Assembly (NCBI RefSeq): GCF_000009985.1
Contig: NC_007626.1
Span: forward strand, 3,238,833 to 3,262,832
Reading direction: 5' to 3'
DNA: 24,000 nt
From: Paramagnetospirillum magneticum AMB-1
Lineage (GTDB): Bacteria > Pseudomonadota > Alphaproteobacteria > Rhodospirillales > Magnetospirillaceae
Below, one piece after another: positions 3,388 through 24,000 of this stretch (positions are counted from its first letter, which is position 1; each line of letters opens with the position of its first letter). Both the position numbers and the translations under genes were made by a program. The notes below the pieces were generated by a model that saw only the letters and a program-made list of their open reading frames with translations, was not told where the DNA came from and made no database searches.

Positions 3388-3586
3388 CCATCACGGGAAT
3401 TGGGACGAAGCCTCCACTCCGATCAGAACCATGGGCGACGGCTCAGAGTCATCCAGAACGGCCGGACGCCCCACCGTTCCCACCCCTTAACAAAGCCCCC
3501 GTCACTTAACTTGCGACAGCGCCCCAGATCACCAGCCTTCGCTTCATCTTGACACATTTTCACTAACCGAAAGGCTGGTGAAATGC

Positions 3587-3615
3587 TTGCCAATCGGGAT
3601 ACAGATTGCAATCAT
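3587..3615 (+). promoter_or_regulatory. Candidate sigma70-type promoter for the chemosensory operon
   Basis: TTGCCA (3587-3592), a 17-nt spacer, then AATCAT (3610-3615), in the lower-GC spacer about 35 nt upstream of ATG 3649. This is a by-eye match only and the -10 element is weak. Confidence 0.25.
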
Positions 3616-3648
3616 CTAATTAAATTCAAGGGTCGGGGTGGATCAGGC

Positions 3649-8089: not shown

Positions 8090-8092
8090 CCC

Positions 8093-10195
8093 ATGGCCCT
8101 CGACATCAAGCGCTTCACCGCCCGCTTCGTCGACGAGGCCCGCGACCATCTCCGCAAGGTGGAGGATGGGCTGGCGACCCTCGACAGCACCCCCGCCGAT
8201 TCCGAGACCATCAACGCCGTCTTCCGCTCCGCCCACACGGTCAAGGGCTCGTCGCGGATGCTCAAGCTGATCCCGATCACCGAAACGGCCCACAAGGTCG
8301 AGGACGTGCTGGGCGCCCTGCGCGACGGCAGCCTGAGTTGGAGTCCCGAGTTGCGGCGCCTGCTGCAGCGGGGCGTCGACGCCCTGTCCGCCCAGGTGGA
8401 CGCCGTGGCCGACGGCAATCCGCCGGCCGAGCCCGACCCGGCCCTGTGCGCCGCCCTGGCCGCCGCCTTGAGGGGGCCGCAGCCAGCGACCGAGCCTCCC
8501 CCGGCTCCGGCCCCCGCCTCCGCCCCGCCCGCCGCCGAGCCGCCGCCCCAGGCCGAGGTGCGCCTGAAATCGGCCGACACGGTGCGGGTGCAGCTGACCA
8601 AGCTGGACGAGCTGATCCGCCTGATGGGCGAGGTGGTGTCCAGCCACGCCCGCCTGCGGCAAAGACTGACCGACATCCGCCAGATCGAGCGCGAGACCCA
8701 GGACCGGGGCGAGGCGGCGGCGCTGACCGGCTTTGCCCGCGACCTGCGCGAGGACGTGTTCTCCCAGGAATTGCTGATGGACGAGCTGCATGCCAAGGCC
8801 CTGGTCATGCGCATGCTGCCCCTGGCCATCGTCCTGGAGCCGGCGGCGCGGCTGATCCGCGATCTCGGACGCTCCCTGGGCAAGGACGTGGAATGCGTGG
8901 TGGGCGGCACCGAGATCGAACTGGACCGCCAGTTGATCGACCGCCTCAACGATCCCATCGTCCATCTGCTGAGGAACTCCGTCGATCACGGCATCGAGGA
9001 TGCCGCCACCCGCCAGGCCGCCGGCAAGCCGCCCTTCGGCACCATCCGTCTGAGCGCCCGCCAGGATGGGGGCTGGGTGCTGATCGAGGTGGCCGACGAC
9101 GGCGGCGGCCTGCCGCTGGCGGCCATCCGCGACAAGGCGGTCCGCAAGGGATTGCTGAGTGCCGAGCAGGCGGCCGCCATGCCCGATTCCGAGGCCATCG
9201 ACCTGATCTTCTCGCCCGGGTTCAGCACCAGCTCCATCATCACCGAGGTCTCGGGACGCGGCGTGGGAATGGACGTGGTCAAGCGGACCATCGTCGACGA
9301 CCTTCAGGGTGTGATCGGTGTCGAGACCGTGCCGGGCAAGGGAACCACCTTCGCGCTGCGCCTGCCCCTGTCCCTGGCGGTAATGCGGGTCCTGGTGGTC
9401 TCGGCCGGGGGCGAAAGCTTCGGCTTCACCGCCCAATACGTGGCCCAGCTTCTGGAGCTTCCGCCCGAAAGGCTGCTGACGGTGGCCGAACGGGACGCGG
9501 TGGTCATCGACAACGAATTCATTCCCGTGGTCTCGCTGGCGACCTTGCTGGGATTGCCCGGCGCCCGTCCGGCCAGGCCGGTGCTCCGGCTGGTGGTGGT
9601 GCGGGTGCGCAACGAGAAACTGGCGCTGCTGGTCGACGAGCTGATCGACGAGCGCGACATGGTGATCAAGCCGCTGCCCGAGCATCTGCGCCACCTGCCG
9701 CTGGTGGCCGGCATGGTCATGACCGGCCGCAATACCCTGGTCAGCGTCCTCCACGCCCCGGTTCTGCTCGACATGGCGCGCCGAGCGCGCGGCGGCATGA
9801 CCGAGGCGCCCCAGTCCGGCGCCGGCGACGCCGTGCGAATCCTGGTGGTCGACGATTCCCTCAATACCCGCGAGATCGAGAAGGACGTGCTGGAAGCCCA
9901 CGGCTATGTGGTCACCCTGGCCGAGGACGGCGTCGACGGGCTGGCGAAGGCCAGGGCCGGCGATTTCGACGCGATCCTGACCGATGTGGAGATGCCCAAC
10001 ATGGACGGCTTCACGCTGACCGCCGCGCTGCGCCAGGACGAGCGTTACCGCGACCGGCCGATCATCATCGTCACCTCGCGGGAAAGGGAAGAAGACAAGC
10101 GGCGCGGCATCCAGGTCGGAGCCGACGCCTATATCGTCAAGGGCGACTTCGACCAGAGCAGTCTGGTCGATACCTTGCGCAGTCTGTTAGGGTGA
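8093..10195 (+). CDS. cheA: Hybrid chemosensory histidine kinase CheA with C-terminal receiver (WspE/FrzE-like)
   Basis: The HPt/P1 domain contains FRSAHTVKGSSRML. A Pro/Ala linker stands where a recognisable P2 domain would be. The dimerisation region reads VRVQLTKLDELIRLMGEVV. The HATPase has an N box (HLLRNSVDHGIE), G1 (VADDGGG) and G2 (SGRGVGMDVV). A CheW-like domain follows (VVSAGGESFGFTAQYV...LALLVDELIDE). The REC domain reads RILVVDDS...ILTDVEMPNMDG...YIVKG. Confidence 0.93.
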   Translation: MALDIKRFTARFVDEARDHLRKVEDGLATLDSTPADSETINAVFRSAHTVKGSSRMLKLIPITETAHKVEDVLGALRDGSLSWSPELRRLLQRGVDALSAQVDAVADGNPPAEPDPALCAALAAALRGPQPATEPPPAPAPASAPPAAEPPPQAEVRLKSADTVRVQLTKLDELIRLMGEVVSSHARLRQRLTDIRQIERETQDRGEAAALTGFARDLREDVFSQELLMDELHAKALVMRMLPLAIVLEPAARLIRDLGRSLGKDVECVVGGTEIELDRQLIDRLNDPIVHLLRNSVDHGIEDAATRQAAGKPPFGTIRLSARQDGGWVLIEVADDGGGLPLAAIRDKAVRKGLLSAEQAAAMPDSEAIDLIFSPGFSTSSIITEVSGRGVGMDVVKRTIVDDLQGVIGVETVPGKGTTFALRLPLSLAVMRVLVVSAGGESFGFTAQYVAQLLELPPERLLTVAERDAVVIDNEFIPVVSLATLLGLPGARPARPVLRLVVVRVRNEKLALLVDELIDERDMVIKPLPEHLRHLPLVAGMVMTGRNTLVSVLHAPVLLDMARRARGGMTEAPQSGAGDAVRILVVDDSLNTREIEKDVLEAHGYVVTLAEDGVDGLAKARAGDFDAILTDVEMPNMDGFTLTAALRQDERYRDRPIIIVTSREREEDKRRGIQVGADAYIVKGDFDQSSLVDTLRSLLG

Positions 10196-10222
10196 AATTG
10201 CCGGATAAAGGGCGGGCAAAGC

Positions 10223-10591
10223 ATGCGGATACTGGTGGTTGACGACGATGCCATGGCGGGCGAGATGACCGGCGCGGTCCTGGAGGATGCCGGGCATGAC
10301 GTGGTCCTGGTGGAAAACGGCATCGATGCCACCGAGGCCCTGTCGGAGCAGGGGCCTTTCGATCTGGTGGTGTCGGACATGAACATGCCGCTGGTCAGCG
10401 GCATCGACTTGTTTCGCAATCTGCGCGACCAGGGCGAGGACATTCCCTTCATCCTGCTGACCGGCGACGAGCCCGGCCCGCTTCTGGCCGAGGAGCCGCG
10501 GCTCGACGGCTGCCTGACCAAGGATTTCACCCTGGAAACCTCGCTGATGGACGCCATCTCCGCCGCCATGGCCAAGCAGGAACGGGGCTAG
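10223..10591 (+). CDS. Stand-alone CheY-like receiver protein
   Basis: A 122-aa ORF: MRILVVDDDAMAGEM..., phosphoacceptor context LVVSDMNMPLVSG, ILLTGDEP, and conserved Lys context GCLTKDF. Confidence 0.85.
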   Translation: MRILVVDDDAMAGEMTGAVLEDAGHDVVLVENGIDATEALSEQGPFDLVVSDMNMPLVSGIDLFRNLRDQGEDIPFILLTGDEPGPLLAEEPRLDGCLTKDFTLETSLMDAISAAMAKQERG

Positions 10592-10596
10592 ACGGC

Positions 10597-12285
10597 ATGG
10601 ACGCCCGCAAGCCGACGCTCCGCGAAAAGATCCAGAAGCTGCGCCAGACCTTTCTCGGCAAGGTGCCCGAGACCGTCCGGCAGGGACGCGACCTCGGGGC
10701 ACGCCTGATCCTGACCCCCAAGGAATCGGGCACCCTGGACGACCTGTACCGCGTCTTCCATTCCATCAAGGGAACCGCCGCCTCGTTCGGACTCGAGGAA
10801 ATCAGCGCCAAGGGCGGCGCCGGCGAGGAAGTGCTTCTCGCGTTCCGCGCCCTGGACGAGGACGCCCGGGCGCGGGCCGTGTCCGGCTCGGTGGCCGAGA
10901 TGAACGCCCTTCTGGCCCAGGTCGTGGAACTGGCGGCCGCGGCGCTGGACAGCGAGAACCGGCTGTCCGCCCTGGCGCCCTCCTTCGACCTTGGCCTGGA
11001 GAGCGGCGACGATGGGGCGCCGCGCAAGCGCGTCTATATGTGCGACGACGACGAACTGGCCGCCGAGACCCTGATCATCCAGCTGAAATGCTTCGGCTAT
11101 GCCGTGGTCAACTTCGTCTCGCCCGATGCCCTGCGGGCGGCGGTGCTGTCCAATCCCCCCGACGCGGTCATCATGGACATCATGTTCCCCGGCGGCAGCC
11201 ATACGGGCACCGAGACCGTGGCCAGCCTGCGGCGCGAGATGCCGAACCCGCCGCCGGTGATCTTCATTTCCGGCCGCCGCGATTTCGATGCCCGTCTGCG
11301 GGCGGTGATGGCCGGCGGCCAGGCCTATTTCGCCAAGCCGGTGCGCGCCATCGAATTGGTGGACACCCTGGACACCATGACGTCGCGGCGCGAACCCGAG
11401 CCCTACCGCATCCTGGTGGTGGACGACGAGCCGGAAGTGGCCGAGTACCACAGCCTGATCCTGGAAGAAGCGGGCATGATCACCAGCCTGCTGCACGAAC
11501 CGGCCGGCATTCTCGACGCCCTGGCGGCGTTCCGCCCCGATCTGGTGCTGATGGACATGTACATGCCCCAGTGCACGGGGCGCGACCTGTCCCGGCTGAT
11601 CCGCCAGATTCCCGATTTCATCAGCCTGCCCATCGTCTTCCTGTCCAGCGAGACCAACAAGGTGACGCAGGTTTCGGCCATGCGGGTGGGCGCCGAGGCC
11701 TTCCTCACCAAGCCCATCCAGCCCGAGGACCTGATCAGCGCCGTGGCCATCCGCGCCGAGCGGATGCGCACCCTGCGCTCGCTGATGGTCCGCGATGGAC
11801 TGACCGGTTTGTTCAACCACACCTTCATCGTCCAGTATCTCGACACCGCCCTGGCGGCGGCCCGGCGCGAGAACGGCAAGCTCTGCGTGGCGATGATCGA
11901 CGTGGACCTGTTCAAGTCGGTCAACGACACCTATGGCCACCCCACCGGGGATCAGGTCCTGGTGGCCCTGGCGCGATTGCTGCAACAGCGGCTGCGCACC
12001 AACGACCTGATCGGGCGCTATGGCGGCGAGGAATTCGTCGTCGTCATGCAAAATGTCAGCCTGAAGGAAGGAATGACCGTCATGAACGGCCTGCGCGAGG
12101 ACTTCGCGCGCCTGAAGTTCCAAAGCGGCGACCAGTTCTTCTCCTGCACCTTCAGCGGCGGTATCTCGCGCTTTCCCGAGATCGCCGGCGACCGGCTGAT
12201 CGAGGCCGCCGACAAGGCCCTCTACGAGGCCAAGCAGGCCGGGCGCAACCGCATCGAGCTGGCGTCGCTGGAGCCACTTCCATGA
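10597..12285 (+). CDS. HPt-REC-REC-GGDEF diguanylate cyclase (PleD/WspR-like output with its own HPt)
   Basis: The N-terminal HPt reads LYRVFHSIKGTAASFGLEE. REC1 reads RVYMCDDDELA...AVIMDIMFPGG...IFISGR...YFAKP. REC2 reads RILVVDDEPEVA...LVLMDMYMPQCTG...VFLSSE...FLTKP. The GGDEF domain reads RDGLTGLFNH...DVDLFKSVNDTYGHPTGD...RTNDLIGRYGGEEF. It therefore has an intact GGEEF A-site and an RxxD I-site (RTND) five residues upstream. Confidence 0.9.
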   Translation: MDARKPTLREKIQKLRQTFLGKVPETVRQGRDLGARLILTPKESGTLDDLYRVFHSIKGTAASFGLEEISAKGGAGEEVLLAFRALDEDARARAVSGSVAEMNALLAQVVELAAAALDSENRLSALAPSFDLGLESGDDGAPRKRVYMCDDDELAAETLIIQLKCFGYAVVNFVSPDALRAAVLSNPPDAVIMDIMFPGGSHTGTETVASLRREMPNPPPVIFISGRRDFDARLRAVMAGGQAYFAKPVRAIELVDTLDTMTSRREPEPYRILVVDDEPEVAEYHSLILEEAGMITSLLHEPAGILDALAAFRPDLVLMDMYMPQCTGRDLSRLIRQIPDFISLPIVFLSSETNKVTQVSAMRVGAEAFLTKPIQPEDLISAVAIRAERMRTLRSLMVRDGLTGLFNHTFIVQYLDTALAAARRENGKLCVAMIDVDLFKSVNDTYGHPTGDQVLVALARLLQQRLRTNDLIGRYGGEEFVVVMQNVSLKEGMTVMNGLREDFARLKFQSGDQFFSCTFSGGISRFPEIAGDRLIEAADKALYEAKQAGRNRIELASLEPLP

Positions 12286-13280: not shown

Positions 13281-13304
13281 CAATGGGTTAAAATGCTGAA
13301 GGGT

Positions 13305-13354
13305 TCGGGAAGCCGGGCTTCCCGATTGGGGGATCGGGGGCAAAAGCCCCCGAT
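13305..13354 (+). promoter_or_regulatory. Two adjacent palindromes or hairpins upstream of pqiA (5'-UTR structure or operator pair)
   Basis: TCGGGAAGCC-G-GGCTTCCCGA (13305-13325) and ATCGGGGGC-AAAA-GCCCCCGAT (13333-13354). Each is followed by TTGG(G/A)GG. A -10-like TAAAAT lies at 13289-13294. Confidence 0.3.
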
Positions 13355-13400
13355 TGGAGGCGTTGCCGGTGACGTCCGGCCGCGATATGGTCGAGCGGTC

Positions 13401-13997
13401 ATGAACCATCTTTGCGCCTGCCCCCATTGCGACGCCCTGCACCGACGGCCAGCGCTGCGGCGCGGCGAAAAGGCCCTGTGTGTCCGCTGCGGCTCGGTGC
13501 TGGTCCGGCGCCACCGGCTGGCTCCCGACCATATCCTGGCGCTGGTGGTGGCGGCGGTGATGGTGTTCGCCATCGCCAACGCCTTTCCCATCGTCGATCT
13601 GCGCATCCAGGGCCTGCGCGGCGGCACCACCTTGTCCGGCGCCGTCGCCGCCCTGTGGTCGGAGGGGCGCCAGCCCATGGCCATGCTGGTCTGCGCCACC
13701 ACCCAGGTGTTCCCGCTGCTCGACCTCGGCTGCATGCTGGCGCTGCTGCTGACGGCATCGCGCCCCGGCCGTCCCGCCTGGTTCGGACCCCTGCTCCGCT
13801 TCGTCCAGGAGATGCGCCCCTGGGGCATGGTCGAGGTCTTCATGCTGGGCGTGGTGGTGTCGCTGGTGAAGCTGTCGGGCATGGCCACCATTCTGCCCGG
13901 CAAGGCGCTTTTGGCCTTTGCCCTGCTGACCGTGCTGATGGCGGCGATCCTGTCGTTCCATCCCCACCAGCTTTGGAACGAGCCCGAGCATGAGTGA
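13401..13997 (+). CDS. pqiA: PqiA-family inner-membrane protein, first half-gene
   Basis: Begins MNHLCACPHCDALHRRPALRRGEKALCVRCGSVL (a CxxC...CxxC ribbon), followed by hydrophobic helices (ILALVVAAVMVFAIANAFPIV, MVEVFMLGVVVSLVKL). The start is set at ATG 13401. Track start 13293 would run through the hairpin region. Confidence 0.8.
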   Translation: MNHLCACPHCDALHRRPALRRGEKALCVRCGSVLVRRHRLAPDHILALVVAAVMVFAIANAFPIVDLRIQGLRGGTTLSGAVAALWSEGRQPMAMLVCATTQVFPLLDLGCMLALLLTASRPGRPAWFGPLLRFVQEMRPWGMVEVFMLGVVVSLVKLSGMATILPGKALLAFALLTVLMAAILSFHPHQLWNEPEHE

Positions 13998-14619
13998 CGA
14001 CGCCCCCATCTCGGCCGCCGAGGCGGGCCTGATGGCCTGCGGCCATTGCGGCCAGATCATGGAGCACCGGGACGGCCCCATCGCCTGCCCCCGCTGCGGC
14101 GGCAGCGTGCGTCCACGCAAGCCCGCCAGCCTGTCGCGCACCTGGGCTCTGCTGCTGACGGCGATCATCCTCTATGTTCCGGCCAACCTGCTGCCGATCA
14201 TGGAGACCTCGTCGCTTTTGGTCACCTCACGCGACACCATCATCGGCGGCGTGGTGTATTTCTGGCATTCCGGCTCGCCCGGGCTGGCGGCCCTGATCTT
14301 CAGCGTCAGCATCCTGGTGCCGGTGCTGAAGATGTGCATCCTGGCCATCCTGGCCCTGACCGTGCAGTTCGGCTGGCCGCTGGACCGCCGCCAGTGCATC
14401 ACCCTGTTCCACGTCATCGAGTTCGTCGGCCGCTGGTCCATGCTGGACGTGTTCGTGGTGGCGCTGATGGTGGGGCTGGTGCGCTTCAAGGGGCTGGCGG
14501 TGATCGAGGCCGGACCCGGAGCCATTGCCTTCGGCCTCGTGGTTGCGTTAACAATGCTGGCCACCCATTCCTTCGACCCCCGCCTGATCTGGGATTCCCC
14601 CCGTCGTGCCCTCGGCTGA
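13990..14619 (+). CDS. pqiA: PqiA-family inner-membrane protein, second half-gene
   Basis: CGHCGQIM...CPRCGG ribbon, then WALLLTAIILYVPANLLPIMETS, SILVPVLKMCILAILALTV and RWSMLDVFVVALMVGLV. The start has an 8-nt overlap (ATGAGTGA) with the first half-gene. Confidence 0.85.
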   Translation: MSDDAPISAAEAGLMACGHCGQIMEHRDGPIACPRCGGSVRPRKPASLSRTWALLLTAIILYVPANLLPIMETSSLLVTSRDTIIGGVVYFWHSGSPGLAALIFSVSILVPVLKMCILAILALTVQFGWPLDRRQCITLFHVIEFVGRWSMLDVFVVALMVGLVRFKGLAVIEAGPGAIAFGLVVALTMLATHSFDPRLIWDSPRRALG

Positions 14620-17043: not shown

Positions 17044-17306
17044 GCGGAGCCATCTCTGCCCCAATCGCGAGAACCTGATGAGGCGGCCGGCACGTCCCTG
17101 ACCGGCCGGGCATCGCCTTGACTGCCCATGGTTGCAGCCACCGAGCACGCCGTGGCGCCATGCCGGAGATCCTCCAAATTTATGTTGCGATCGATTCGCA
17201 TTCTCATTACTGATGGCCGGACTTTCCGCGCCCGAAGCGACACCGCGACGGGCCGCCAGCCCGGAGCCTCATCCTGTCGGTCCTCTCTTTTCCCCGCCAC
17301 GCCCTG

Positions 17307-18254
17307 GTGCTGTGCCTCGTCCTGCTGGCCCTCGGCATGCCGTTGGGCGCGCCGTGGGAACCGGCGCGGGCTGCGGAGGCCGATGAATTCGGGCTGGAGG
17401 AAAAGGACCCGGAGCTGCCGGGCAAGATTAAGGCCTGGAATGCCGACTGCCTGTCCTGTCACAGCGAGGCCGGGCTGAAAAATCCTCCGCGCCAGGGCAT
17501 GGACATGGCGCTGCTGGCCAAGCTGCTGGTCGACCATCCGCGCTTCGAGGCCTCCGATCACGGCAAGATGGCCTGCAAGGATTGTCATTCCGAGGCCTAT
17601 GTCCCCTATCCCCACCTGCCCAACGCCAAGGCGCAGATCAAGGGCTGCGAGCCCTGCCACCAGCAGCCGGCCAAAGCCATCGTCCCGGAGTTCAAGGCCA
17701 GCAAGCACTTCAAGGACCACACGGCCAAGTTCACCTGCCTGTCCTGTCACGATTCCCACACCATGCGCAAGGCGGCCAAGCTGCCCTCCGCCCAGGCTGC
17801 GTCACGCCAGGACAATCATCAATGTCTGGCCTGCCACGACGACGACCGGCGTTATCTCGCCCTGATGAAGCCCGAGACCCGGCGGCCCGAGATGAGCAAG
17901 GTGCATGACTGGCTGCCCGAACTGGCCCTGCATCTCGATCACGTTCGCTGTGTCGATTGCCACAGCCCGGTGGCCGACATGGCCCTGTCCCACGAGGTGC
18001 AGGGCAAGGACAAGGCGGTTCGCCAGTGCGAATCCTGCCACGCCGAGCAAGGCGAACTGGGCCGCCGCCTGTACAAGCCCATGCTCATCGACCAGCCCGG
18101 GGAAACGGATGGCTTCGCCAATGCCGCCCTGCTGCGCGAGGTCTATGTGCTCGGCGCCAACCGTAACCGATGGATCGACTGGGGCGGCTTGGGAGCGTTG
18201 TCGCTGACCGCCCTGGTGGTGCTGGTCCGCTTTGTGCGCCGGAGGAAGACATGA
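17307..18254 (+). CDS. Heptahaem c-type cytochrome, periplasmic with a C-terminal membrane anchor
   Basis: Seven CxxCH motifs: CLSCH, CKDCH, CEPCH, CLSCH, CLACH, CVDCH, CESCH. The N-terminus is signal-like (LCLVLLALGMPLGAPWEPARA/AE). The C-terminal TM helix ends in a basic tail (WGGLGALSLTALVVLVRFVRRRKT). The start is GTG at 17307 and is uncertain. Confidence 0.85.
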   Translation: MLCLVLLALGMPLGAPWEPARAAEADEFGLEEKDPELPGKIKAWNADCLSCHSEAGLKNPPRQGMDMALLAKLLVDHPRFEASDHGKMACKDCHSEAYVPYPHLPNAKAQIKGCEPCHQQPAKAIVPEFKASKHFKDHTAKFTCLSCHDSHTMRKAAKLPSAQAASRQDNHQCLACHDDDRRYLALMKPETRRPEMSKVHDWLPELALHLDHVRCVDCHSPVADMALSHEVQGKDKAVRQCESCHAEQGELGRRLYKPMLIDQPGETDGFANAALLREVYVLGANRNRWIDWGGLGALSLTALVVLVRFVRRRKT

Positions 18255-20200
18255 CAGCAACGCCCGCCCAGGTCTCTCCCCCTCTCCACCGCCAGCGACT
18301 GGTGGTGGTGGGCAACGGCATGGCCGCGCTGCGCACCGTCGAGGAGATTCTGGCGCTGGCGCCCGATCGCTTCCACATCACGGTGCTGGGGGCCGAGCCC
18401 CACGGCAATTACAACCGCATCCTCCTGTCGTCGGTGCTGGCCGGCGACAAGCAGGTGGGCGACATCGTCACCCATCCCCCCGGCTGGTATGCCGAGCGCG
18501 GCATCGCCTTGCGCACCGGCGATCCGGTGGTGTCCATCGACCCGGAGCACCGCCGGGTGAGCACCGCCTCGGGCCACGTGGTCGCGTGGGACCGCCTGCT
18601 GCTGGCCACCGGCGCCCGGCCGCTGATGCCCGCCCTGCCCGGGGCCGGACTGGAGGGCGTCTACGGCTTTCGCACCATCGGCGACGTCCAGGCCATGCTG
18701 GCGTCGGCGGGACGCCATCGCCGCGCCGTGGTGGTGGGCGGTGGCGTGCTGGGCCTGGAGGCCGCCTGGGGCCTGCGCCGCCAGGGCATGGCGGTGACGG
18801 TCATCCACCTCACTCCCTGGCTGATGGAACGCCAGTTGGACGAGGTGGCGGCCGCAATGCTGCGCCACGACCTGGAACGCCACGGCATCGCCTGCCTGAC
18901 CTCGGCCCAGGCGGCCCGGCTGGAGGGCCGCGAAAGGGTCGAGGCCGTCACCCTGTCCGACGGCCGCACCATCGCCGCCGATCTGGTGGTGATGGCGGTG
19001 GGCATCCGCCCCAACACCGACCTGGCGCGTCAGGCCGGGCTGGAGGTGGGGCGCGGCATCACGGTGGATGCCCGGATGCGCAGTTCGGCCCCGGATATCT
19101 TCGCGGTGGGAGAATGCGTCGAGCATGACGGCCAGTGCTATGGTCTGGTCATGCCGCTGTGGGACATGGCCCGGGTCTGCGCCCACCATCTGACGGGGGG
19201 CGAGGGCGAGCGTCTTTTCACGCCCCCCTCGCTGTCGACCCGCCTCAAGATTCCCGGCATCGCCCTGTTCTCGGCCGGCGAGCCCGCCGCCGCCAACGAT
19301 GACGACCGCGAACTGATCCACCACGATCCCGGCCAGAGCATCTACAAGAAGCTGGTGCTGCGCCGGGGACGGCTGGTGGGCGCCGTGCTCTATGGCGACG
19401 TGGAGGACAGCGCCCGCGTCTGGCAATGGCTGTGCGACGGCGACGACGTCGGCCATCTCTGCGCCGGCAATTTGTGCCTGGGGCGAATTTCCGGCCAGTG
19501 CGCCGCCGCCGATCCCCTGGAGAACCTGCCCGACGACGCCGTGGTCTGCCATTGCAACGGCGTGACCAAGGGCGCCATCGTCGCCGCCATCGCCGAGCAC
19601 GGCCTGACCAGCCTGGAGCAGGTCACCGCCCGGACCAGGGCGTGCAGCGGCTGCGGCCAGTGCGCCGCGCTCACCGCCCGCATCCTGGCCCGCACCCTGG
19701 GCGAGGACGGCGCCGAGGCCCTGGCCGCCGAGACGCGGCGAAGCGAGATCCGCGCCGGGGCCTTCCGCCTCTGGCACCGCGCCAATGCCGTGCTGATGAG
19801 CGTGCTGGCCGTCACCGGGCTGTTCCTGCATTTCGCCGGGACCCCGGCGGCGCTGCTGCGTCTGGAATGGGCGTTCGGCCTGCACAAATGGTCGGGCCTG
19901 ACCCTGGTCGCCGCCTATGGCGCCTTCCTGGGCCTGACCGCGCTGTTCCGCCGCCGCTGGCGGGCCAATGCCGAAGGAATGGTGATGTTCGTCCTGATGC
20001 CGGCCCTGGTGGTCACCGGTCTGGCCTTCCTATGGCCGGTCCTGCTGCCCCAGGAGCCGCAGAAGGTCAACGGCATCGCCTGGGTTGCGGTGGTCCACAC
20101 CGTACTGGCCATCGCCCTCTTGATGTACCTGATTCACCACCTGGGCACCGCCCCGGTCCAGTGGTGGCGAAAGCGAAAGGCGCGGGCCTTCGGGGGGTGA
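18251..20200 (+). CDS. Fusion protein: NirB-like FAD/NAD(P)H oxidoreductase, BFD-like [2Fe-2S] domain and four-TM dihaem cytochrome b domain
   Basis: ATG 18251 follows GGAGGAAG and forms an ATGA overlap with the cytochrome stop. The FAD motif is LVVVGNGMAALRT. The second dinucleotide motif is AVVVGGGVLGLEAAWGL. AVGECVEH is also present. The BFD-type cysteines read VVCHCNGVTKG...RACSGCGQCAA. Four hydrophobic helices follow, with His in TM1 (LWHR, FLHF), in TM2 (LHKW), and as a pair 13-14 residues apart in TM4 (VVHTVLAIALLMYLIHH). The C-terminus is basic (WWRKRKARAFGG). Confidence 0.85.
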   Translation: MTATPAQVSPPLHRQRLVVVGNGMAALRTVEEILALAPDRFHITVLGAEPHGNYNRILLSSVLAGDKQVGDIVTHPPGWYAERGIALRTGDPVVSIDPEHRRVSTASGHVVAWDRLLLATGARPLMPALPGAGLEGVYGFRTIGDVQAMLASAGRHRRAVVVGGGVLGLEAAWGLRRQGMAVTVIHLTPWLMERQLDEVAAAMLRHDLERHGIACLTSAQAARLEGRERVEAVTLSDGRTIAADLVVMAVGIRPNTDLARQAGLEVGRGITVDARMRSSAPDIFAVGECVEHDGQCYGLVMPLWDMARVCAHHLTGGEGERLFTPPSLSTRLKIPGIALFSAGEPAAANDDDRELIHHDPGQSIYKKLVLRRGRLVGAVLYGDVEDSARVWQWLCDGDDVGHLCAGNLCLGRISGQCAAADPLENLPDDAVVCHCNGVTKGAIVAAIAEHGLTSLEQVTARTRACSGCGQCAALTARILARTLGEDGAEALAAETRRSEIRAGAFRLWHRANAVLMSVLAVTGLFLHFAGTPAALLRLEWAFGLHKWSGLTLVAAYGAFLGLTALFRRRWRANAEGMVMFVLMPALVVTGLAFLWPVLLPQEPQKVNGIAWVAVVHTVLAIALLMYLIHHLGTAPVQWWRKRKARAFGG

Positions 20201-20232: not shown

Positions 20233-21175
20233 ATGATGAGAATGCGACTTATTAGCCTTACTTCCGCCGTCGCGGCCCTGCTGTCCGCCGCCCCCGCCCT
20301 GGCCGTGGATTGGGCCAAGGTGCCGGGCCGCGAGGTGGTCTTGCTGTATCCCGGCCAGACCTCGTGGGAGTGGAACCTGACCGAAGCCGACCACAGCGCC
20401 GCCGCCAAGTTCAAGGCGGGGCAGAACTGCATCGAGTGCCACAAGAACCAGGAAAAGACCCAGGGCGCCCTGATGGTATCGGGCAAGAAGGCCGAGCCCA
20501 ACGCCATCGCCTCGTTCCCCGGCCATGTGGTGGTCAACACCCGCTTCGCCTATGACGACCAGCGGCTTTACGCCCGCTTCGAGTTCAAGGAGCCGGCCTC
20601 GCCCAACACCAAAATGGACGCCGAGTTCGCCACCAAGCTGGCCTTCATCTTCAACGATGCCGCGGTCCCCGAGGGCGTGCGGGCCGGCTGCTGGGCCAGC
20701 TGCCACGAGGACAACGCCTCCATGCCCGCGGCGGGCGGGTCCGAGCGCACCAAGTACCTGATGAAAAGCCGGGCCAAGCTGAGCCGCCAGGGCGGCGGCG
20801 ACCTGCTGAAAATCCCCCGAGGACCTGGCCAGGCTGACCGAGACCGGCTACATCCAGGAATGGTGGCAGGCCAAGCTGAATCCCGGCGCCAAGCCGGTGG
20901 CCGGCGGCGGCATCATCTTCGACCGCCGCCAGGAACTGAAGCCCGCCCAGGTCAGCGCCGAAGCGACCCAGGCCGCTGACGGCGGCTGGGTGGTGGTGCT
21001 GAGCCGCCCGCTGGCCGCCCCGGCCCCCTATCGCGCCCTGGCGCCGGGAAAGACCTATTCCTTCGGCATCAGCGTCCATGTGGGCCACAGCGCCAAGCGC
21101 TTCCACCACACGTCTTATGAGTACACCCTGGCGCTGGGGTCCGGCGCCGCCGATTTCATGGCGGTGAAGCAATGA
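20233..21175 (+). pseudogene. EB_dh-like (ethylbenzene dehydrogenase gamma / cytochrome c552 N-domain-like) periplasmic haem protein, interrupted by a 1-nt frameshift
   Basis: GGAG lies 7 nt before ATG 20233 and the signal peptide is MMRMRLISLTSAVAALLSAAPALA/VD. There are two CxxCH motifs (CIECH, CWASCH). Frame 1 is sensible up to ...GGGDLLKIP at about 20817 and then becomes an Arg/Pro/Gly-rich tail. Frame 2 opens at 20810 and continues sensibly (EDLARLTETGYIQEWWQAKLNPGAKPVAGGGIIFDRRQEL...HHTSYEYTLALG) to TGA 21175. That stop is ATGA-coupled to the next gene. The shift maps to the A4/C5 homopolymers at 20809-20818. Confidence 0.65.
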
Positions 21176-22128
21176 GGCTGGCCCGTCTCCTCCCCTGGGC
21201 GGCCCTGGCGGCGATCCTGCTGCTGGCCGCCTGGATTTCGCCGGCTTGGCCCCAGATCGCCTCGGCCCCCGAATGGTCGGCCGACGGCGAGGCCACCTGC
21301 ATCAAGTGCCACGGCGAAACCAGGGACCGCACCATCCTGTTCACCCCCCACGGGGTGAAGGGGGACAAGCACACTCCCATGGCGCAGCACGCCTGCGAGG
21401 GCTGCCATGGCGCCAGCCCCCGCCACAACGACGCCCGCCCGCCCAAGGGCGAAAAGCGCCCGCCGACCGACGTGGTGTTCAAGGGCGAGTTCCTGTCGCC
21501 GGTGGAAAAGCGCAACCAGGTCTGCTCCAACTGCCATAACGGCGGCGAGCACATCAACTGGAAGGGCAGCACCCACCAGCGCAACGACGTGGCCTGCACC
21601 GATTGCCATGCCTCGCATGTGCGCTCGGACCCGGTCATGGCCAAGAAGACCGAGCCCCAGGTCTGCTTCACCTGCCACAACCAGGAGCGGGCGGAAAGCC
21701 TGCAGGCCTCGCACCATCCCATCCGCGAGGGCAAGGTCACCTGCTCGGACTGCCACAACACCCACGGCTCGGGCGGGCCGAAGCTGCTCAAGGAGTTCAC
21801 CCTCAACGAGACCTGCTACGCCTGCCACCCGGAACAGCGCGGGCCGTTCCTGTGGGAGCACCAGCCGGTGCGCGAGGATTGCAGCACCTGCCACCAATCC
21901 CACGGCTCGCCCCAATCCAGCCTGCTGAAGCAGCGCCAGCCGTTCATCTGCATGACCTGCCACCAGACCAGCCGCGCCAATCACGACGCCATGGTCTCGG
22001 GCGGCCAGCAATTGCCCGGCGCCGGCGGTGTTGGCACCTACAACATGCTGCTGGCCCGGGGCTGCTCCAATTGCCACTCCAAGGTCCACGGCTCCAATGC
22101 CCCCTCGGGAGGCATGCTGACCCGCTGA
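21172..22128 (+). CDS. mtoA: Periplasmic decahaem c-type cytochrome, MtrA/DmsE/MtoA/PioA family
   Basis: A 318-aa ORF with signal peptide MRLARLLPWAALAAILLLAAWISPAWP. Exactly ten CxxCH motifs: CIKCH, CEGCH, CSNCH, CTDCH, CFTCH, CSDCH, CYACH, CSTCH, CMTCH, CSNCH. Size and haem count match MtrA/MtoA, and the gene is followed by an MtrB/PioB-type barrel gene. The symbol is by family resemblance only. Confidence 0.9.
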   Translation: MRLARLLPWAALAAILLLAAWISPAWPQIASAPEWSADGEATCIKCHGETRDRTILFTPHGVKGDKHTPMAQHACEGCHGASPRHNDARPPKGEKRPPTDVVFKGEFLSPVEKRNQVCSNCHNGGEHINWKGSTHQRNDVACTDCHASHVRSDPVMAKKTEPQVCFTCHNQERAESLQASHHPIREGKVTCSDCHNTHGSGGPKLLKEFTLNETCYACHPEQRGPFLWEHQPVREDCSTCHQSHGSPQSSLLKQRQPFICMTCHQTSRANHDAMVSGGQQLPGAGGVGTYNMLLARGCSNCHSKVHGSNAPSGGMLTR

Positions 22129-22216: not shown

Positions 22217-24000
22217 ATGATGTTTGTGAAGATCCTGCGCAGCGGCGCCCTGGCGGCTTTCTGCACCCTGACGGCAACCGCCCAGGCCGACGAGTTCGAC
22301 ATCGACGAGGCCCCCGCCGTGTCGCCCGCCAAGAAGCCGGTGCCCATGAACGAGGCCGGCGTCCATGTGGGGGCGCAACGGGGGGGCTCGGCGGCCTTCA
22401 ACCGTTTTGGCGGCACGCCAGAAAGCGGCGTCTTCGGCGGCGGCTGGTTCCACCTGCAGCAGCGCGACGCCGCCGAGGGCGGCGGCACCTTCTACCTCAA
22501 GGCCGATGGCGAGAACGTCGATTTCCGCTCCAACGCCCTGCCGCCCGACGCCGCCGCCGCCGTGCGAATGGGCCAGCAAGGGGTGTGGGACCTGCGCCTT
22601 CACTATGACGGCATTGTGTTTCGCCAGGCCGACAACTACCACACCCTGTTCAATGGCTCGGGGCAGTTGCTGAACGGCCTGACGCCGGCCTCCATCAACG
22701 CCACCTCGACCAATGCCGCCGGGGTGGCCCGCGTCAACCAGTACCTGTCGGCGGTGGAGGTGGGCACGAGGCGCGACCGGGCGGGCGGCGCCTTTTCCTA
22801 TACCGGGCTGGAGGAATGGAAGTTCACCACCCGGCTGGACCACGAACACAAGCACGGCACCAAGGCCAATTCGGTGATGTTCCTGTCCAACAGCAATTTC
22901 GCCTCCATCCTGGAGCCGGTGAACTACGACACCGACCGCTTCGCCCTGAATGCCGCCTACACCACCCGGCCGCTGCAGGCACAGATCAGCTACGTCTTTT
23001 CCAACTTCACCAACAATATCGCCGAATACGTCACCCGCGATCCTTTCATCGGGGCCACCCATGCCGGCTATGACGGCACCCGCTATTCGTTGCCGCCCAG
23101 CAATTCCGAGCATCGCCTCAAGGCGCAGTTCGGGGTGAACCTCACCGACACCACCCGCATCGCCACCAATCTCAGCTACGGCCTGCAGCTTCAGAACGAA
23201 GCCTTCGCCGCGCGGCATTACGAGCAGGCCCCCCGCCTGGGCGCCAGCACCTATGACGGCATGATCCAGACGCTCTACGGCAACGTGGTCATGACGGCGC
23301 GCCCCCTGCCCGACTGGACCCTGCGCGCCGCCTATACCGCCGACGACCGCGACAACATGAGCGCGTCCTATTGGCAAAAGCCTCCCTACCGCGCCGACGG
23401 CACCGCCGTCTTCAACGGCAACACCGGCATTCACACCAACCCCGCCTATTCGTTCTTCAACCAGAAGGGCGAGGCGGAAGTGGGCTATCGCCTGACCCGC
23501 TCCACCAAGCTCACCGCCGACTACGCCTATCGCAACAGCCTGCGCAGCGATTCGGTCACCAACCGCAACGAGGAAAGCACCTATGGCGGCCGGGTCCAGT
23601 CCACCCTGGCCGAGGGGCTGACCGGCACCCTGGGCTATGCCCATTCCAACCGGCAGGCCACGGTCTTCCTGGGCAATCGCGGCTGGAACGAGATGGGGCG
23701 CACGGTCACCGCCGAGTCCGGGCTGAAGATCTTTTCCTACGCCGCCCGCGACCGCGACGAGGCCAAGGCCAATCTCAACACGGTGTTCGGCGACGGCGTG
23801 GTAGTGGGGACCACGGCCCGCTGGATCGAGGATCGCTTTCCCGAGACCCTCTACGGCGTCACCAACAACCACATCCTGTCCCTGGGCGGCGACGCCTCGT
23901 TCCCCGCCGGGCCGGGCGTGACCGCCCACCTGTTCTACACCTACATGGAGAACTTCACCGGCATGAAGATGAATGCCAGCGCCACCGGCACGCTGTGGAC
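22217..24000 (+). CDS. mtoB: MtrB/MtoB/PioB-family outer-membrane beta-barrel (porin partner of the decahaem cytochrome), 3'-truncated by the window edge
   Basis: My own translation from ATG 22217 stays open to the window end. The signal peptide is MMFVKILRSGALAAFCTLTATAQA/DEF. Amphipathic strand-like repeats rich in Y/R/N/D/T follow (LRLHYDGIVFRQ, AQISYVFSNFTNN, TLRAAYTADDRDN, KLTADYAYRNSLRSD, GTLGYAHSNRQ). It sits immediately downstream of the decahaem gene. It is absent from the ORF track because no stop lies in the window. Confidence 0.8.
   Translation, partial: MMFVKILRSGALAAFCTLTATAQADEFDIDEAPAVSPAKKPVPMNEAGVHVGAQRGGSAAFNRFGGTPESGVFGGGWFHLQQRDAAEGGGTFYLKADGENVDFRSNALPPDAAAAVRMGQQGVWDLRLHYDGIVFRQADNYHTLFNGSGQLLNGLTPASINATSTNAAGVARVNQYLSAVEVGTRRDRAGGAFSYTGLEEWKFTTRLDHEHKHGTKANSVMFLSNSNFASILEPVNYDTDRFALNAAYTTRPLQAQISYVFSNFTNNIAEYVTRDPFIGATHAGYDGTRYSLPPSNSEHRLKAQFGVNLTDTTRIATNLSYGLQLQNEAFAARHYEQAPRLGASTYDGMIQTLYGNVVMTARPLPDWTLRAAYTADDRDNMSASYWQKPPYRADGTAVFNGNTGIHTNPAYSFFNQKGEAEVGYRLTRSTKLTADYAYRNSLRSDSVTNRNEESTYGGRVQSTLAEGLTGTLGYAHSNRQATVFLGNRGWNEMGRTVTAESGLKIFSYAARDRDEAKANLNTVFGDGVVVGTTARWIEDRFPETLYGVTNNHILSLGGDASFPAGPGVTAHLFYTYMENFTGMKMNASATGTLW

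What the first reader, a model, noticed from the sequence alone, without database searches (positions are those of the whole stretch)
18251..20200. NirB-like flavoprotein fused to a BFD [2Fe-2S] domain and a dihaem cytochrome b: a NOX/FRE-like transmembrane electron route
One 650-aa polypeptide combines three modules. The N-terminal part is a cytoplasmic two-dinucleotide-fold oxidoreductase (GNGMAA and GGGVLG motifs) with no signal peptide. Next is a BFD-type Cys cluster (CHC...CSGCGQC). The C-terminal domain has four TM helices.

The His pattern in that domain is TM1, TM2, and a pair 13-14 residues apart in TM4. This is the pattern used for bis-His ligation of two stacked b haems in the FdnI/HydC/PhsC-type cytochrome b family. 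The basic C-terminus and cytoplasmic N-terminus fit an N-in/C-in topology.

The gene is ATGA-coupled to a membrane-anchored periplasmic heptahaem cytochrome. The implied wire is NAD(P)H, FAD, 2Fe-2S, haem b, haem b, then periplasmic multihaem c. That would cross the membrane without the quinone pool. The logic is analogous to eukaryotic NADPH oxidase and ferric reductase, but built from unrelated bacterial parts. I do not recognise this as a described component of any EET pathway.
Basis: partly seen in the sequence, partly recalled or inferred. Interest (0 to 1): 0.88.

Follow-up and report, generated by a model that had tools for sequence, protein, structure and literature searches.

The report
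NAD(P)H flavoprotein fused to membrane cytochrome b
A real and conserved bacterial gene joins the NAD(P)H-oxidising front half of nitrite reductase to a two-haem membrane cytochrome inside a five-gene metal-respiration cassette, so it probably sends electrons from NAD(P)H out of the cell without using quinones, though nobody has tested this.

Summary
Window 18251..20200 (+) is one 649-aa ORF, amb3014 of Paramagnetospirillum magneticum AMB-1. It contains a FAD/NAD(P) reductase, a BFD [2Fe-2S] domain and a 4-helix PF01292 cytochrome b.

The fusion is not an assembly artefact. About 25 protein clusters share the architecture. The four BFD cysteines and the four FdnI-type haem histidines are invariant.

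Every sufficiently long locus carries the same five genes in the same order: 7-haem c with a C-terminal TM helix, the fusion, an EB_dh-like haem protein, MtrA and MtrB.

The 7-haem protein plus the cytochrome b domain is a split CbcL/MtrH/MtoC-type inner-membrane bc-cytochrome. The N-terminal 60% of a Rhodospirillales NirB is inserted into its cytoplasmic loop.

The fusion family has also lost about 43 residues of the TM2-TM3 loop. In relatives this loop carries an NPxQ motif that aligns with FdnI residues 110-113, which I recall as the menaquinone site.

Best reading: NAD(P)H, FAD, 2Fe-2S, haem b, haem b, 7-haem c, MtrAB, independent of quinone. This is inferred, not shown. I found no published description.

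It is a new variant of a known kind. In AMB-1 the adjacent EB_dh-like gene carries a frameshift.

The parts
17307..18254 (+). Heptahaem c-type cytochrome (amb3013): signal-like N-terminus, 7 CxxCH, one C-terminal TM helix with a cytoplasmic RRRKT tail. Homologous to the N-terminal half, including TM0, of CbcL/MtoC-like bc-cytochromes.
   Evidence: 7 CxxCH. Pfam cytochrome c7/c3 hits. 29% identity end to end with the N-terminal halves of P0128 (E 8e-39) and P0135 (E 5e-35), including the TM helix. Locus tag.
18251..18254 (+). ATGA overlap of the stop of the heptahaem gene with the start of the fusion gene (translational coupling).
   Evidence: Sequence. The same 4-nt overlap is seen in L001, L002 and L005.
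18251..20200 (+). Fusion protein amb3014 (649 aa): NirB-type FAD/NAD(P) reductase + BFD [2Fe-2S] + dihaem cytochrome b.
18296..19420 (+). Cytoplasmic FAD/NAD(P)H two-dinucleotide-fold reductase (residues 16-294) plus C-terminal Rubredoxin_C-type domain (329-390). 55-58% identical to Rhodospirillales NirB.
   Evidence: Pfam. TIGR02374 NirB positions 1-475 of 794, 478 bits, below the 578 cut-off. Foldseek matches to putidaredoxin, rubredoxin and toluene-dioxygenase reductases at E about 1e-33. NirB identities.
19541..19690 (+). BFD-like [2Fe-2S] domain. The ligand cysteines C433, C435, C468 and C471 have codons at 19547, 19553, 19652 and 19661.
   Evidence: PF04324 E 2.8e-15. All four Cys invariant in 20 sequences. 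Codons checked.
19763..20179 (+). Four-helix FdnI/HydC/PhsC-type cytochrome b domain. Putative haem ligands are H509 (19775), H545 (19883), H616 (20096) and H630 (20138), plus a conserved H527 (19829). The TM2-TM3 cytoplasmic loop is shortened by about 43 residues.
   Evidence: PF01292 55.4 bits. AF2 domain model pLDDT 87.6. Top Foldseek PDB hit is FdnI 1kqf_C, prob 1.00, TMq 0.60. The four His align with FdnI residues 18, 57, 155 and 169. They are invariant in 12 diverse relatives. Loop deletion.
20233..21175 (+). EB_dh/DOMON-like secreted haem protein (1 CxxCH + 1 CX3CH). In this window it is interrupted by a +1 frameshift at about 20809-20818. Removing one base restores a 313-aa ORF.
   Evidence: Three-frame translation. 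DNA alignment with L004. The repaired ORF matches PF09459 at 106.7 bits. The gene is intact in every other locus that spans it (L001, L002, L004-L007, L009).
21172..22128 (+). MtrA/DmsE-family periplasmic decahaem cytochrome (amb3017).
   Evidence: 10 CxxCH. TIGR03508 315 bits against a cut-off of 192.
22217..24000 (+). MtrB/PioB-family outer-membrane porin. It runs off the end of the window.
   Evidence: PF11854 E 4e-127. Start codon checked.

Best explanation
amb3013 and amb3014 together form a five-TM inner-membrane complex. It has a cytoplasmic flavo-iron-sulfur head and a periplasmic heptahaem tail.

The proposed route has four steps:
1. NAD(P)H is oxidised at the FAD of the NirB-derived module. 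This part of the chemistry is established for NirB and for ferredoxin-reductase homologues.
2. Single electrons pass to the BFD [2Fe-2S] cluster, then to the cytoplasmic-side b haem (H509/H630), and across the membrane to the periplasmic-side b haem (H545/H616).
3. From there they reach the seven c haems of the TM-anchored partner.
4. They continue to MtrA in the MtrB porin, possibly by way of the EB_dh-like haem protein, and on to an extracellular acceptor such as Fe(III).

The canonical quinol site of the parent CbcL/MtoC-type cytochrome b has been deleted. The hard-wired NAD(P)H dehydrogenase replaces it, so the route bypasses the quinone pool.

Exporting electrons while the protons stay inside dissipates membrane potential. 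The likely role is therefore an electron sink, or reductive iron mobilisation, rather than energy conservation.

Shown here: the domain composition, the conserved ligands, the topology prediction, the homology to CbcL/MtoC and NirB, the strict five-gene synteny and the loop deletion. Inferred: cofactor binding, partner contacts, direction of flow and quinone independence.
For: - **Architecture and ligands.**
- **FdnI-like fold.**
- **Input module.** The N-terminal module is 55-58% identical to genuine NirB up to and including the BFD domain. That is the NADH, FAD, 2Fe-2S input part of NirB. It has the ferredoxin-reductase fold.
- **Relatives of the cytochrome b domain.** Outside the family, the closest relatives are free-standing PhsC-like cytochromes b and multihaem-c/cytochrome-b fusions. 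The upstream heptahaem protein aligns end to end with the N-terminal half of those fusions. The two genes therefore behave as one split bc-cytochrome.
- **Coupling.** The ATGA overlap is conserved in 4 of 6 loci.
- **Synteny.** All seven other loci that reach far enough (L001 and L009 are the same MAG sequence) carry all five genes in the same order, although their flanks differ.
- **Loop deletion.** The TM2-His to TM3-Pro segment is exactly 38 aa in all 14 family members. It is 56-86 aa (median 81) in 92 complete relatives, and 68 of those carry NPxQ. That motif aligns with FdnI N110-Q113.
- **Topology.** The positive-inside rule places the flavodomain in the cytoplasm.
- **No free-standing form.** No unfused version of this cytochrome b subfamily was found among 1.84 billion representatives.
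Against: - There are no biochemical data. The library holds no paper on amb3013-3018.
- The full-length AF2 model has pTM 0.55 and I could not read its coordinates. The distance from the 2Fe-2S cluster to the haem is therefore unknown.
- The role of FdnI Asn110/Gln113 in quinone binding is recalled from memory (Jormakka et al. 2002) and was not verified here (one search found nothing).
- A quinone site could lie elsewhere, for example near the conserved H527 on the periplasmic side.
- In AMB-1 the neighbouring EB_dh-like gene is frameshifted. The cassette may be inactive in this strain, or this may be a sequencing error.
- The family is rare. A pattern-limited scan of one genome per 185,579 species found 4 loci.
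Confidence: 0.55

Rival explanations
1. Quinone-coupled enzyme. The cytochrome b domain still binds quinone or quinol, as its CbcL/MtoC/PhsC relatives are thought to. The complex would then work as an NAD(P)H:quinone reductase, a quinol:cytochrome c oxidoreductase, or both. The flavodomain would be an extra or regulatory input, not a replacement for quinol.
For: The nearest relatives belong to a family described as quinol oxidases or quinone reductases (PMC6295460, PMC9129911). An extra conserved His (H527) lies near the periplasmic face. It is invariant in the family and present in 71 of 92 relatives.
Against: The family-specific 43-residue deletion removes the NPxQ loop that aligns with FdnI residues 110-114, which I recall as its quinone pocket. 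A dedicated FAD/2Fe-2S donor sits directly on the cytoplasmic end of TM1, with a continuous helix 488-527 in the model.
Confidence: 0.2
2. Inward electron flow. The cassette takes up electrons from extracellular Fe(II) or a cathode through MtrAB (a Mto/Pio-like role) and uses them to reduce NAD(P)+ in the cytoplasm.
For: MtoAB/PioAB homologues of MtrAB work in Fe(II) oxidation, and MtoC occurs in Fe(II) oxidisers (PMC6295460, PMC6831781). NirB-type flavoproteins are chemically reversible.
Against: This rests on established bioenergetics, not on a test here. Fe(II)/Fe(III) couples lie several hundred mV above NAD(P)+/NAD(P)H. Moving electrons inward also works against the membrane potential. 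No energy-coupling subunit is in the cassette.
Confidence: 0.1
3. The cassette is a decaying or non-EET system in this strain. It may be inactive in AMB-1 because of the frameshift, or it may serve a periplasmic reaction unrelated to extracellular acceptors.
For: There is a +1 frameshift in the EB_dh-like gene at about 20809-20818. No MtrC-type surface cytochrome is in the cassette.
Against: The other four genes are intact and under evident conservation: 53-94% identity across loci and all cofactor ligands kept. The frameshift lies in a homopolymer run of an old genome sequence and could be a sequencing error. Reported goethite reduction in a Telmatospirillum culture was attributed to MtrAB homologues, one set preceded by a gene called 'cytochrome c-552 (2 hemes)', which may correspond to the EB_dh-like gene here (PMC6933298).
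Confidence: 0.12
4. Artefactual fusion: a missed stop codon or a misassembly joining two genes.
For: None found.
Against: The ORF is continuous in the window. The same architecture occurs in about 25 clusters from isolates (AMB-1, Skermanella stibiiresistens SB22) and from independent metagenomes. No free-standing copy of this cytochrome b subfamily exists.
Confidence: 0.01

Closest known systems
CbcL / MtrH / MtoC family of inner-membrane bc-cytochromes (Geobacter CbcL, Rhodoferax MtrH, Dechloromonas and Gallionella MtoC)
   Same: A periplasmic multihaem c domain is followed by a TM helix and a HydC/FdnI-type dihaem cytochrome b. The family is often encoded next to mtrAB/mtoAB. The window's heptahaem protein and cytochrome b domain both match proteins of this architecture (heptahaem: E 8e-39 and 5e-35; cytochrome b profile: E about 1e-15) (PMC6295460).
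   Different: Here the polypeptide is split after TM0. About 490 residues of NirB (FAD/NAD + BFD) are inserted before TM1. The TM2-TM3 loop with NPxQ is deleted. There are 5 TM helices in total rather than the usual 6. CbcL is regarded as a menaquinol oxidase, whereas this protein carries its own NAD(P)H dehydrogenase.
NirB, the assimilatory NAD(P)H nitrite reductase large subunit
   Same: The N-terminal 60% (FAD/NAD domains + BFD 2Fe-2S) is 55-58% identical to Rhodospirillales NirB and covers model positions 1-475 of TIGR02374.
   Different: The sirohaem/4Fe-4S domains (PF01077, PF03460) are absent and replaced by a membrane cytochrome b. The score is below the NirB cut-off (478 against 578 bits). 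It cannot reduce nitrite.
FdnI / HyaC / PhsC dihaem cytochrome b subunits (PF01292)
   Same: Four-helix bundle with N-in/C-in topology. The four His align with FdnI residues 18, 57, 155 and 169 (the bis-His haem ligands, from memory). The best structural match is 1kqf_C.
   Different: It is covalently fused to its cytoplasmic redox partner and lacks the loop aligned with FdnI residues 110-114. It is very divergent: as a single sequence or a family profile it finds no PDB hit.
Eukaryotic NOX/FRE and bacterial NOX (SpNOX, CsNOX5); the putative PtdC/E/F proteins of the ptd porin-cytochrome operon
   Same: Same logic: cytoplasmic NAD(P)H, then flavin, then two stacked b haems across the membrane, then an external acceptor. 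The ptd operon (bioRxiv 10.1101/2023.11.21.568154) also combines a FAD/NAD(P) oxidoreductase, an Fe-S protein and a TM haem protein with a porin and multihaem cytochromes.
   Different: The folds are unrelated: a 6-TM ferric-reductase domain plus an FNR-type dehydrogenase, against a 4-TM FdnI-type bundle plus a glutathione-reductase-type flavoprotein and 2Fe-2S. The NOX5 TM domain appears only as an insignificant Foldseek hit (E 2). The function of Ptd is itself unknown.
Tmc/Hmc-type transmembrane redox complexes of sulfate reducers (from my own knowledge)
   Same: They link periplasmic multihaem cytochromes c through a membrane cytochrome b to a cytoplasmic Fe-S protein, and quinones are not obligatory.
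   Different: The subunit families differ (NarI-like cytochrome b, HdrD-like Fe-S). Electron flow is inward to sulfite reduction. There is no NAD(P)H flavoprotein and no MtrAB.

Membership tests
PF01292 prokaryotic cytochrome b561 (FdnI/HydC/PhsC type) | HMM match above the curated threshold | tested here: met
   55.4 bits against a cut-off of 30.1, residues 505-643.
PF01292 prokaryotic cytochrome b561 (FdnI/HydC/PhsC type) | Four-TM helical bundle with N-in/C-in topology | tested here: met
   AF2 helices 2-36, 47-74, 83-103 and 117-155 of the domain, pLDDT 87.6. Top PDB match is FdnI 1kqf_C. Positive-inside counts.
PF01292 prokaryotic cytochrome b561 (FdnI/HydC/PhsC type) | Four His ligands (TM1, TM2, and two in TM4 14 residues apart) for two b haems | tested here: met
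   H509, H545, H616 and H630 are invariant in 20 family members and 12 diverse relatives. They align with FdnI residues 18, 57, 155 and 169.
PF01292 prokaryotic cytochrome b561 (FdnI/HydC/PhsC type) | Cytoplasmic-side quinone pocket formed partly by the TM2-TM3 loop (FdnI N110-Q113 region) | tested here: not met
   The loop is 38 aa with no N..Q motif in all 14 members. It is a median of 81 aa in 92 relatives, 68 of them with NPxQ. The role of the FdnI residues is recalled from memory.
PF01292 prokaryotic cytochrome b561 (FdnI/HydC/PhsC type) | Actual binding of two b haems | not testable with these tools
   Needs spectroscopy of the purified protein.
CbcL/MtrH/MtoC bc-cytochromes | Homologous periplasmic multihaem c domain and homologous cytochrome b domain | tested here: met
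   Heptahaem against P0128 and P0135: 29% identity, E 8e-39 and 5e-35. The cytochrome b profile hits the C-terminal domains of the same proteins.
CbcL/MtrH/MtoC bc-cytochromes | Single polypeptide with the c domain directly followed by the TM region | tested here: not met
   Two ORFs with an ATGA overlap, and a 490-residue flavo-FeS insertion before TM1.
CbcL/MtrH/MtoC bc-cytochromes | Genomic association with mtrAB/mtoAB | tested here: met
   MtrA and MtrB lie downstream in the window and in all loci long enough to show them.
CbcL/MtrH/MtoC bc-cytochromes | Quinol oxidase or quinone reductase activity | not testable with these tools
   The sequence evidence (loop deletion) argues against the canonical site.
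NirB nitrite reductase large subunit (TIGR02374) | Full-length model match above the cut-off | tested here: not met
   478 bits against a cut-off of 578. Only model positions 1-475 of 794 are matched.
NirB nitrite reductase large subunit (TIGR02374) | Sirohaem/[4Fe-4S] domains (PF01077, PF03460) | tested here: not met
   Absent from the Pfam scan of the protein, yet present in all genuine NirB hits.
NOX/FRE ferric-reductase family | Six-TM ferric reductase domain plus FNR-like FAD/NADPH domain | tested here: not met
   The Pfam scan finds no such domains. The NOX5 TM domain scores only E 2, prob 0.21. Functional analogy only.
MtrAB/MtoAB/PioAB porin-cytochrome module (neighbouring genes) | DmsE/MtrA-family decahaem plus MtrB/PioB porin encoded side by side | tested here: met
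   TIGR03508 315 bits (cut-off 192) with 10 CxxCH. PF11854 E 4e-127.

The most novel reading that the evidence does not exclude
A self-contained, horizontally mobile five-gene module wires the cytoplasmic NAD(P)H pool directly to extracellular acceptors through MtrAB with no quinone step. It would be a bacterial functional counterpart of NOX/FRE, built from an FdnI-type cytochrome b and half of NirB. In magnetotactic and soil Rhodospirillales it may serve as an extracellular ferric reductase for iron mobilisation or as a redox valve.
Probability: 0.4. Interest if true: 0.85.

Novelty: new variant of a known kind. Interest (0 to 1): 0.72.

Why it matters
As far as I know, the characterised Mtr, Pcc and Cbc routes for extracellular electron transfer all start from the quinone pool (CymA, CbcL, ImcH, NetBCD). 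A hard-wired NAD(P)H entry point would be a different bioenergetic design. It would be driven by a donor at about -320 mV plus the membrane potential. It would conserve no energy, and it would work in organisms whose quinones are too oxidising to reduce MtrA.

It would also explain how some Rhodospirillales with mtrAB might reduce iron minerals without using CymA or a quinol oxidase.

For engineering, a compact five-gene cassette that connects NAD(P)H to an electrode independently of host quinones would be attractive for bioelectrochemical strains.

It is also a clean example of domain shuffling: half of an assimilatory nitrite reductase inserted into a respiratory bc-cytochrome.

Tried and rejected
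- **Cofactor preference from His186.** I asked whether invariant His186, at the end of the NAD-Rossmann beta2 strand, marks a switch to NADPH. Rejected: genuine Rhodospirillales NirB proteins carry the same VVHL motif.
- **PDB sequence searches.** The cytochrome b domain alone and the family profile found nothing. Only the broader profile A4 reached HyaC and FdnI.
- **Regulatory sites.** An FNR-box search and a promoter/terminator scan of the 476-bp upstream region and the operon gave nothing above chance.
- **Literature.** Searches by locus tag, by Pfam architecture and by concept found no description of this fusion.
- **FdnI quinone-site residues.** I could not confirm them in the held library.
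- **Host quinone types.** I could not confirm from the held papers that the hosts make only ubiquinone. The thermodynamic argument that ubiquinol is too oxidising is therefore left as speculation.
- **Skermanella protein P0018.** An exact-sequence contig look-up failed. The locus was recovered by the genome scan instead.
- **Inter-domain distances.** Model coordinates are not exposed, so distances in the full-length AF2 model could not be measured.

Full report
**What is there**

The window is from Paramagnetospirillum magneticum AMB-1. The protein is 100% identical to BAE51818/WP_011385390 (amb3014), on a 4.97-Mb contig.

The ORF at 18251..20200 (+) encodes 649 residues. Its ATG overlaps the TGA of the upstream gene 17307..18254 as ATGA.

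Pfam finds four modules:
- Pyr_redox_2 at residues 16-294 (E 1.5e-61).
- A Rubredoxin_C-type C-terminal domain at 329-390.
- A BFD-like [2Fe-2S] domain at 431-480 (E 2.8e-15).
- PF01292 'prokaryotic cytochrome b561' at 505-643 (55.4 bits, cut-off 30.1).

The sequence has no CxxCH motif and no signal peptide. Public annotation is generic: 'FAD-dependent oxidoreductase' or 'NAD(P)H-nitrite reductase'.

**Is the fusion real?**

Yes. A search of 5.8 billion proteins returned about 25 clusters with the same architecture at 53-100% identity. They come from Magnetospirillum, Skermanella stibiiresistens SB22, a MAG labelled Candidatus Sulfotelmatobacter, and unnamed metagenomes.

In an alignment of 20 full-length members:
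- The dinucleotide motifs GNGMA and GGGxLGLE are invariant.
- The four BFD cysteines (C433, C435, C468, C471) are invariant.
- Five histidines of the membrane domain (H509, H527, H545, H616, H630) are invariant.

A profile of the membrane domain, searched against 1.84 billion cluster representatives, found no free-standing copy of this subfamily. Its only close hits are the fusions themselves and fragments of them.

**The membrane domain**

AlphaFold2 on the domain alone gives a four-helix bundle (pLDDT 87.6, pTM 0.76). Its best PDB match by Foldseek is FdnI of E. coli formate dehydrogenase-N (1kqf_C, probability 1.00, TM 0.60).

A broader profile (A4) reaches HyaC (E 6e-6) and FdnI (E 1e-4) by sequence. 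That alignment places H509, H545, H616 and H630 on FdnI residues 18, 57, 155 and 169. From my own knowledge these are the bis-His ligands of the two haems. The same four His are invariant in 12 diverse relatives.

K+R counts are 4, 1, 4, 1 and 5 for pre-TM1, loop 1-2, loop 2-3, loop 3-4 and the C-terminus. This gives an N-in/C-in topology and puts the flavodomain in the cytoplasm.

**The cytoplasmic module**

The next-best database hits after the fusions are genuine 815-aa NirB proteins of Rhodospirillales. They are 55-58% identical over the first 73% of the query.

NCBIfam's NirB model matches positions 1-475 of 794 and scores below its cut-off (478 against 578 bits). The module is the NADH, FAD, [2Fe-2S] electron-input half of NirB. 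The sirohaem half is missing.

Foldseek on the full-length model (pLDDT 77, pTM 0.55) matches putidaredoxin, rubredoxin and toluene-dioxygenase reductases at E about 1e-33. These enzymes pass electrons one at a time from NADH to Fe-S carriers.

Outside the fusion family, the closest relatives of the cytochrome b domain fall into two groups:
- Free 200-260-aa cytochromes b that resemble PhsC.
- Many 500-630-aa proteins with an N-terminal multihaem c domain and a C-terminal PF01292 domain.

The second group has the architecture of the CbcL/MtrH/MtoC family. These are inner-membrane bc-cytochromes described as quinol oxidases or quinone reductases for extracellular electron transfer, and they are often encoded beside mtrAB/mtoAB (PMC6295460, PMC9129911).

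The window's upstream heptahaem protein aligns end to end, including its C-terminal TM helix, with the N-terminal halves of two such proteins (29% identity; E 8e-39 and 5e-35).

The two window genes are therefore a split CbcL/MtoC-like protein. The NirB module is inserted in the cytoplasmic loop between the anchoring helix and TM1 of the cytochrome b. The 4-nt overlap between the two genes recurs in L001, L002 and L005.

**A family-specific deletion**

I aligned 92 complete non-fusion relatives to the domain profile.
- In the relatives, the segment between the TM2 histidine and the conserved TM3 proline is 56-86 residues long (median 81). Sixty-eight of the 92 carry an NPxQ motif there.
- In all 14 fusion members the segment is exactly 38 residues and has no such motif.

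In the HMM alignment the NPxQK motif falls on FdnI N110-K114. I recall these residues as part of the menaquinone/HQNO pocket next to the cytoplasmic haem. I could not verify that here.

The deletion fits a loss of the ancestral quinone site at the very face where the new flavo-FeS donor is attached. It is the only sequence evidence that bears on quinone independence. It is suggestive, not decisive.

**Genomic context**

The gene is the second of five co-oriented genes:
1. Heptahaem c, 17307..18254.
2. The fusion, 18251..20200.
3. An EB_dh/DOMON-like secreted protein with one CxxCH and one CX3CH, 20233..21175.
4. An MtrA/DmsE decahaem, 21172..22128 (TIGR03508, 315 bits).
5. An MtrB/PioB porin from 22217 to the window end (PF11854, E 4e-127).

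Every other locus that extends far enough (L001, L002, L004, L005, L006, L007, L009; L009 duplicates L001) has all five genes in the same order. Each has 7 and 10 CxxCH in the first and fourth genes. The flanking genes are unrelated from locus to locus.

The cassette therefore behaves as a unit, and it is rare. A pattern-limited scan of one genome per 185,579 species found four loci.

Upstream in the window are a DnaE2-like polymerase, a chemotaxis cluster and pqiABC. None of these is evidently connected to the cassette.

**Frameshift**

In the window the EB_dh-like gene changes frame near 20809-20818, in an A4/C5 run. This corresponds to one extra base relative to the 81%-identical locus L004.

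Deleting one base restores a 313-aa protein that matches PF09459 at 107 bits and aligns with all orthologues. It is either a sequencing error in the AMB-1 genome or a recent inactivating mutation.

**Mechanism**

The best-supported route is: NAD(P)H, FAD, [2Fe-2S], cytoplasmic haem b (H509/H630), periplasmic haem b (H545/H616), seven c haems on the TM-anchored partner, then MtrA in MtrB and an external acceptor. The EB_dh-like protein may act as an intermediate or terminal carrier.

The direction is argued from bioenergetics. Outward flow is downhill in redox potential and is assisted by the membrane potential. Inward flow from Fe(II) to NAD(P)+ would be strongly uphill on both counts, and the cassette has no coupling subunit.

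Outward flow dissipates membrane potential. That points to an electron-sink or ferric-reductase role rather than respiration. All of this is inference; no experiment on these genes was found.

**Literature**

- Gagen et al. 2019 (PMC6933298) list MtrAB homologues in Telmatospirillum, Skermanella stibiiresistens and M. magneticum. They call a gene upstream of one Telmatospirillum mtrA 'cytochrome c-552 (2 hemes)'. They do not mention the flavocytochrome b.
- Baker et al. 2022 (PMC8805035) and Zhong and Shi 2018 (PMC6295460) do not describe it either.
- The nearest published idea is the ptdABCDEFG operon. It combines a FAD/NAD(P) oxidoreductase, an Fe-S protein and a ferric-reductase-like TM protein with a porin and multihaem cytochromes, and its function is unknown (bioRxiv 10.1101/2023.11.21.568154). 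Its parts differ from those here.

**Verdict**

The system is best described as a new variant of the CbcL/MtoC-MtrAB type of conduit, in which a NirB-derived NAD(P)H dehydrogenase appears to have replaced the quinol site.

It is not a NirB and not a NOX/FRE relative. It fails the single-polypeptide and quinone-loop features of its parent families.

Interest is 0.72. The finding is well supported as an entity, apparently undescribed and directly testable, but it is mechanistically unproven and built from recognisable parts.

Noticed in passing
window 20233-21175 (frameshift at about 20809-20818): The EB_dh-like gene between the fusion and mtrA is split over two frames by one extra base in an A4/C5 run. 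It is intact in every other locus that spans it. This is either a sequencing error in the AMB-1 genome or a recent inactivation of the cassette in this strain.
   Followed up: yes
window 20233-21175; L001 10022-10966; L002 9976-10905; L004 10016-10909; L005 4743-5690; L007 9470-10429: The EB_dh/DOMON-like protein is very highly conserved (69-86% identity). It carries one CxxCH plus one atypical CX3CH (GCWASCH) and a type-I signal peptide. It occupies the position that mtrC holds in mtrCAB, so it may be the terminal or outer carrier. Gagen et al. called a gene at the same position beside one Telmatospirillum mtrA 'cytochrome c-552 (2 hemes)', which may be the counterpart.
   Followed up: partly
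L001/L009 (MAG labelled Candidatus Sulfotelmatobacter) compared with the Rhodospirillales loci: All five cassette proteins of a MAG labelled as an acidobacterium are 46-69% identical to the AMB-1 proteins, and the flanks are unrelated. This suggests transfer of the cassette across phyla, or a mis-binned contig.
   Followed up: no
L008 5082-6982 (Magnetospirillum sp. MAG, protein P0008, 581 aa): The fusion gene is annotated as truncated (581 aa), but tblastn still finds the whole cytochrome b domain downstream. That copy probably carries an assembly frameshift.
   Followed up: no
window 18170-18250 and 17307: Start-codon annotations differ between sources. A 676-aa version of the fusion starts at the in-frame ATG at 18170, inside the upstream gene. 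The heptahaem protein exists as 305-aa (amb3013) and 315-aa versions. The homologue alignment supports 18251 as the fusion start.
   Followed up: partly
window 13293-13997 and 13990-14619: PqiA is encoded as two overlapping half-size ORFs (234 and 209 aa), each with one PqiA domain. They are followed by a PqiB (three MlaD domains) and a PqiC-like lipoprotein.
   Followed up: no
window 319-3387 and 3583-12285: A DnaE2-type second Pol III alpha subunit (1022 aa) is followed by a chemotaxis cluster: a dCache MCP, CheB, a CheR-containing 765-aa protein, CheA-CheW-REC, and an Hpt-REC-REC-GGDEF protein. No evident link to the cassette.
   Followed up: no
window 17170-17215: A short AT-rich patch with a small inverted repeat (TGCGATCGATTCGCA) lies about 100 bp upstream of the heptahaem gene, in an otherwise 68% GC region. 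It could be an operator or promoter element. No FNR-like box or sigma-70 consensus was detected.
   Followed up: partly
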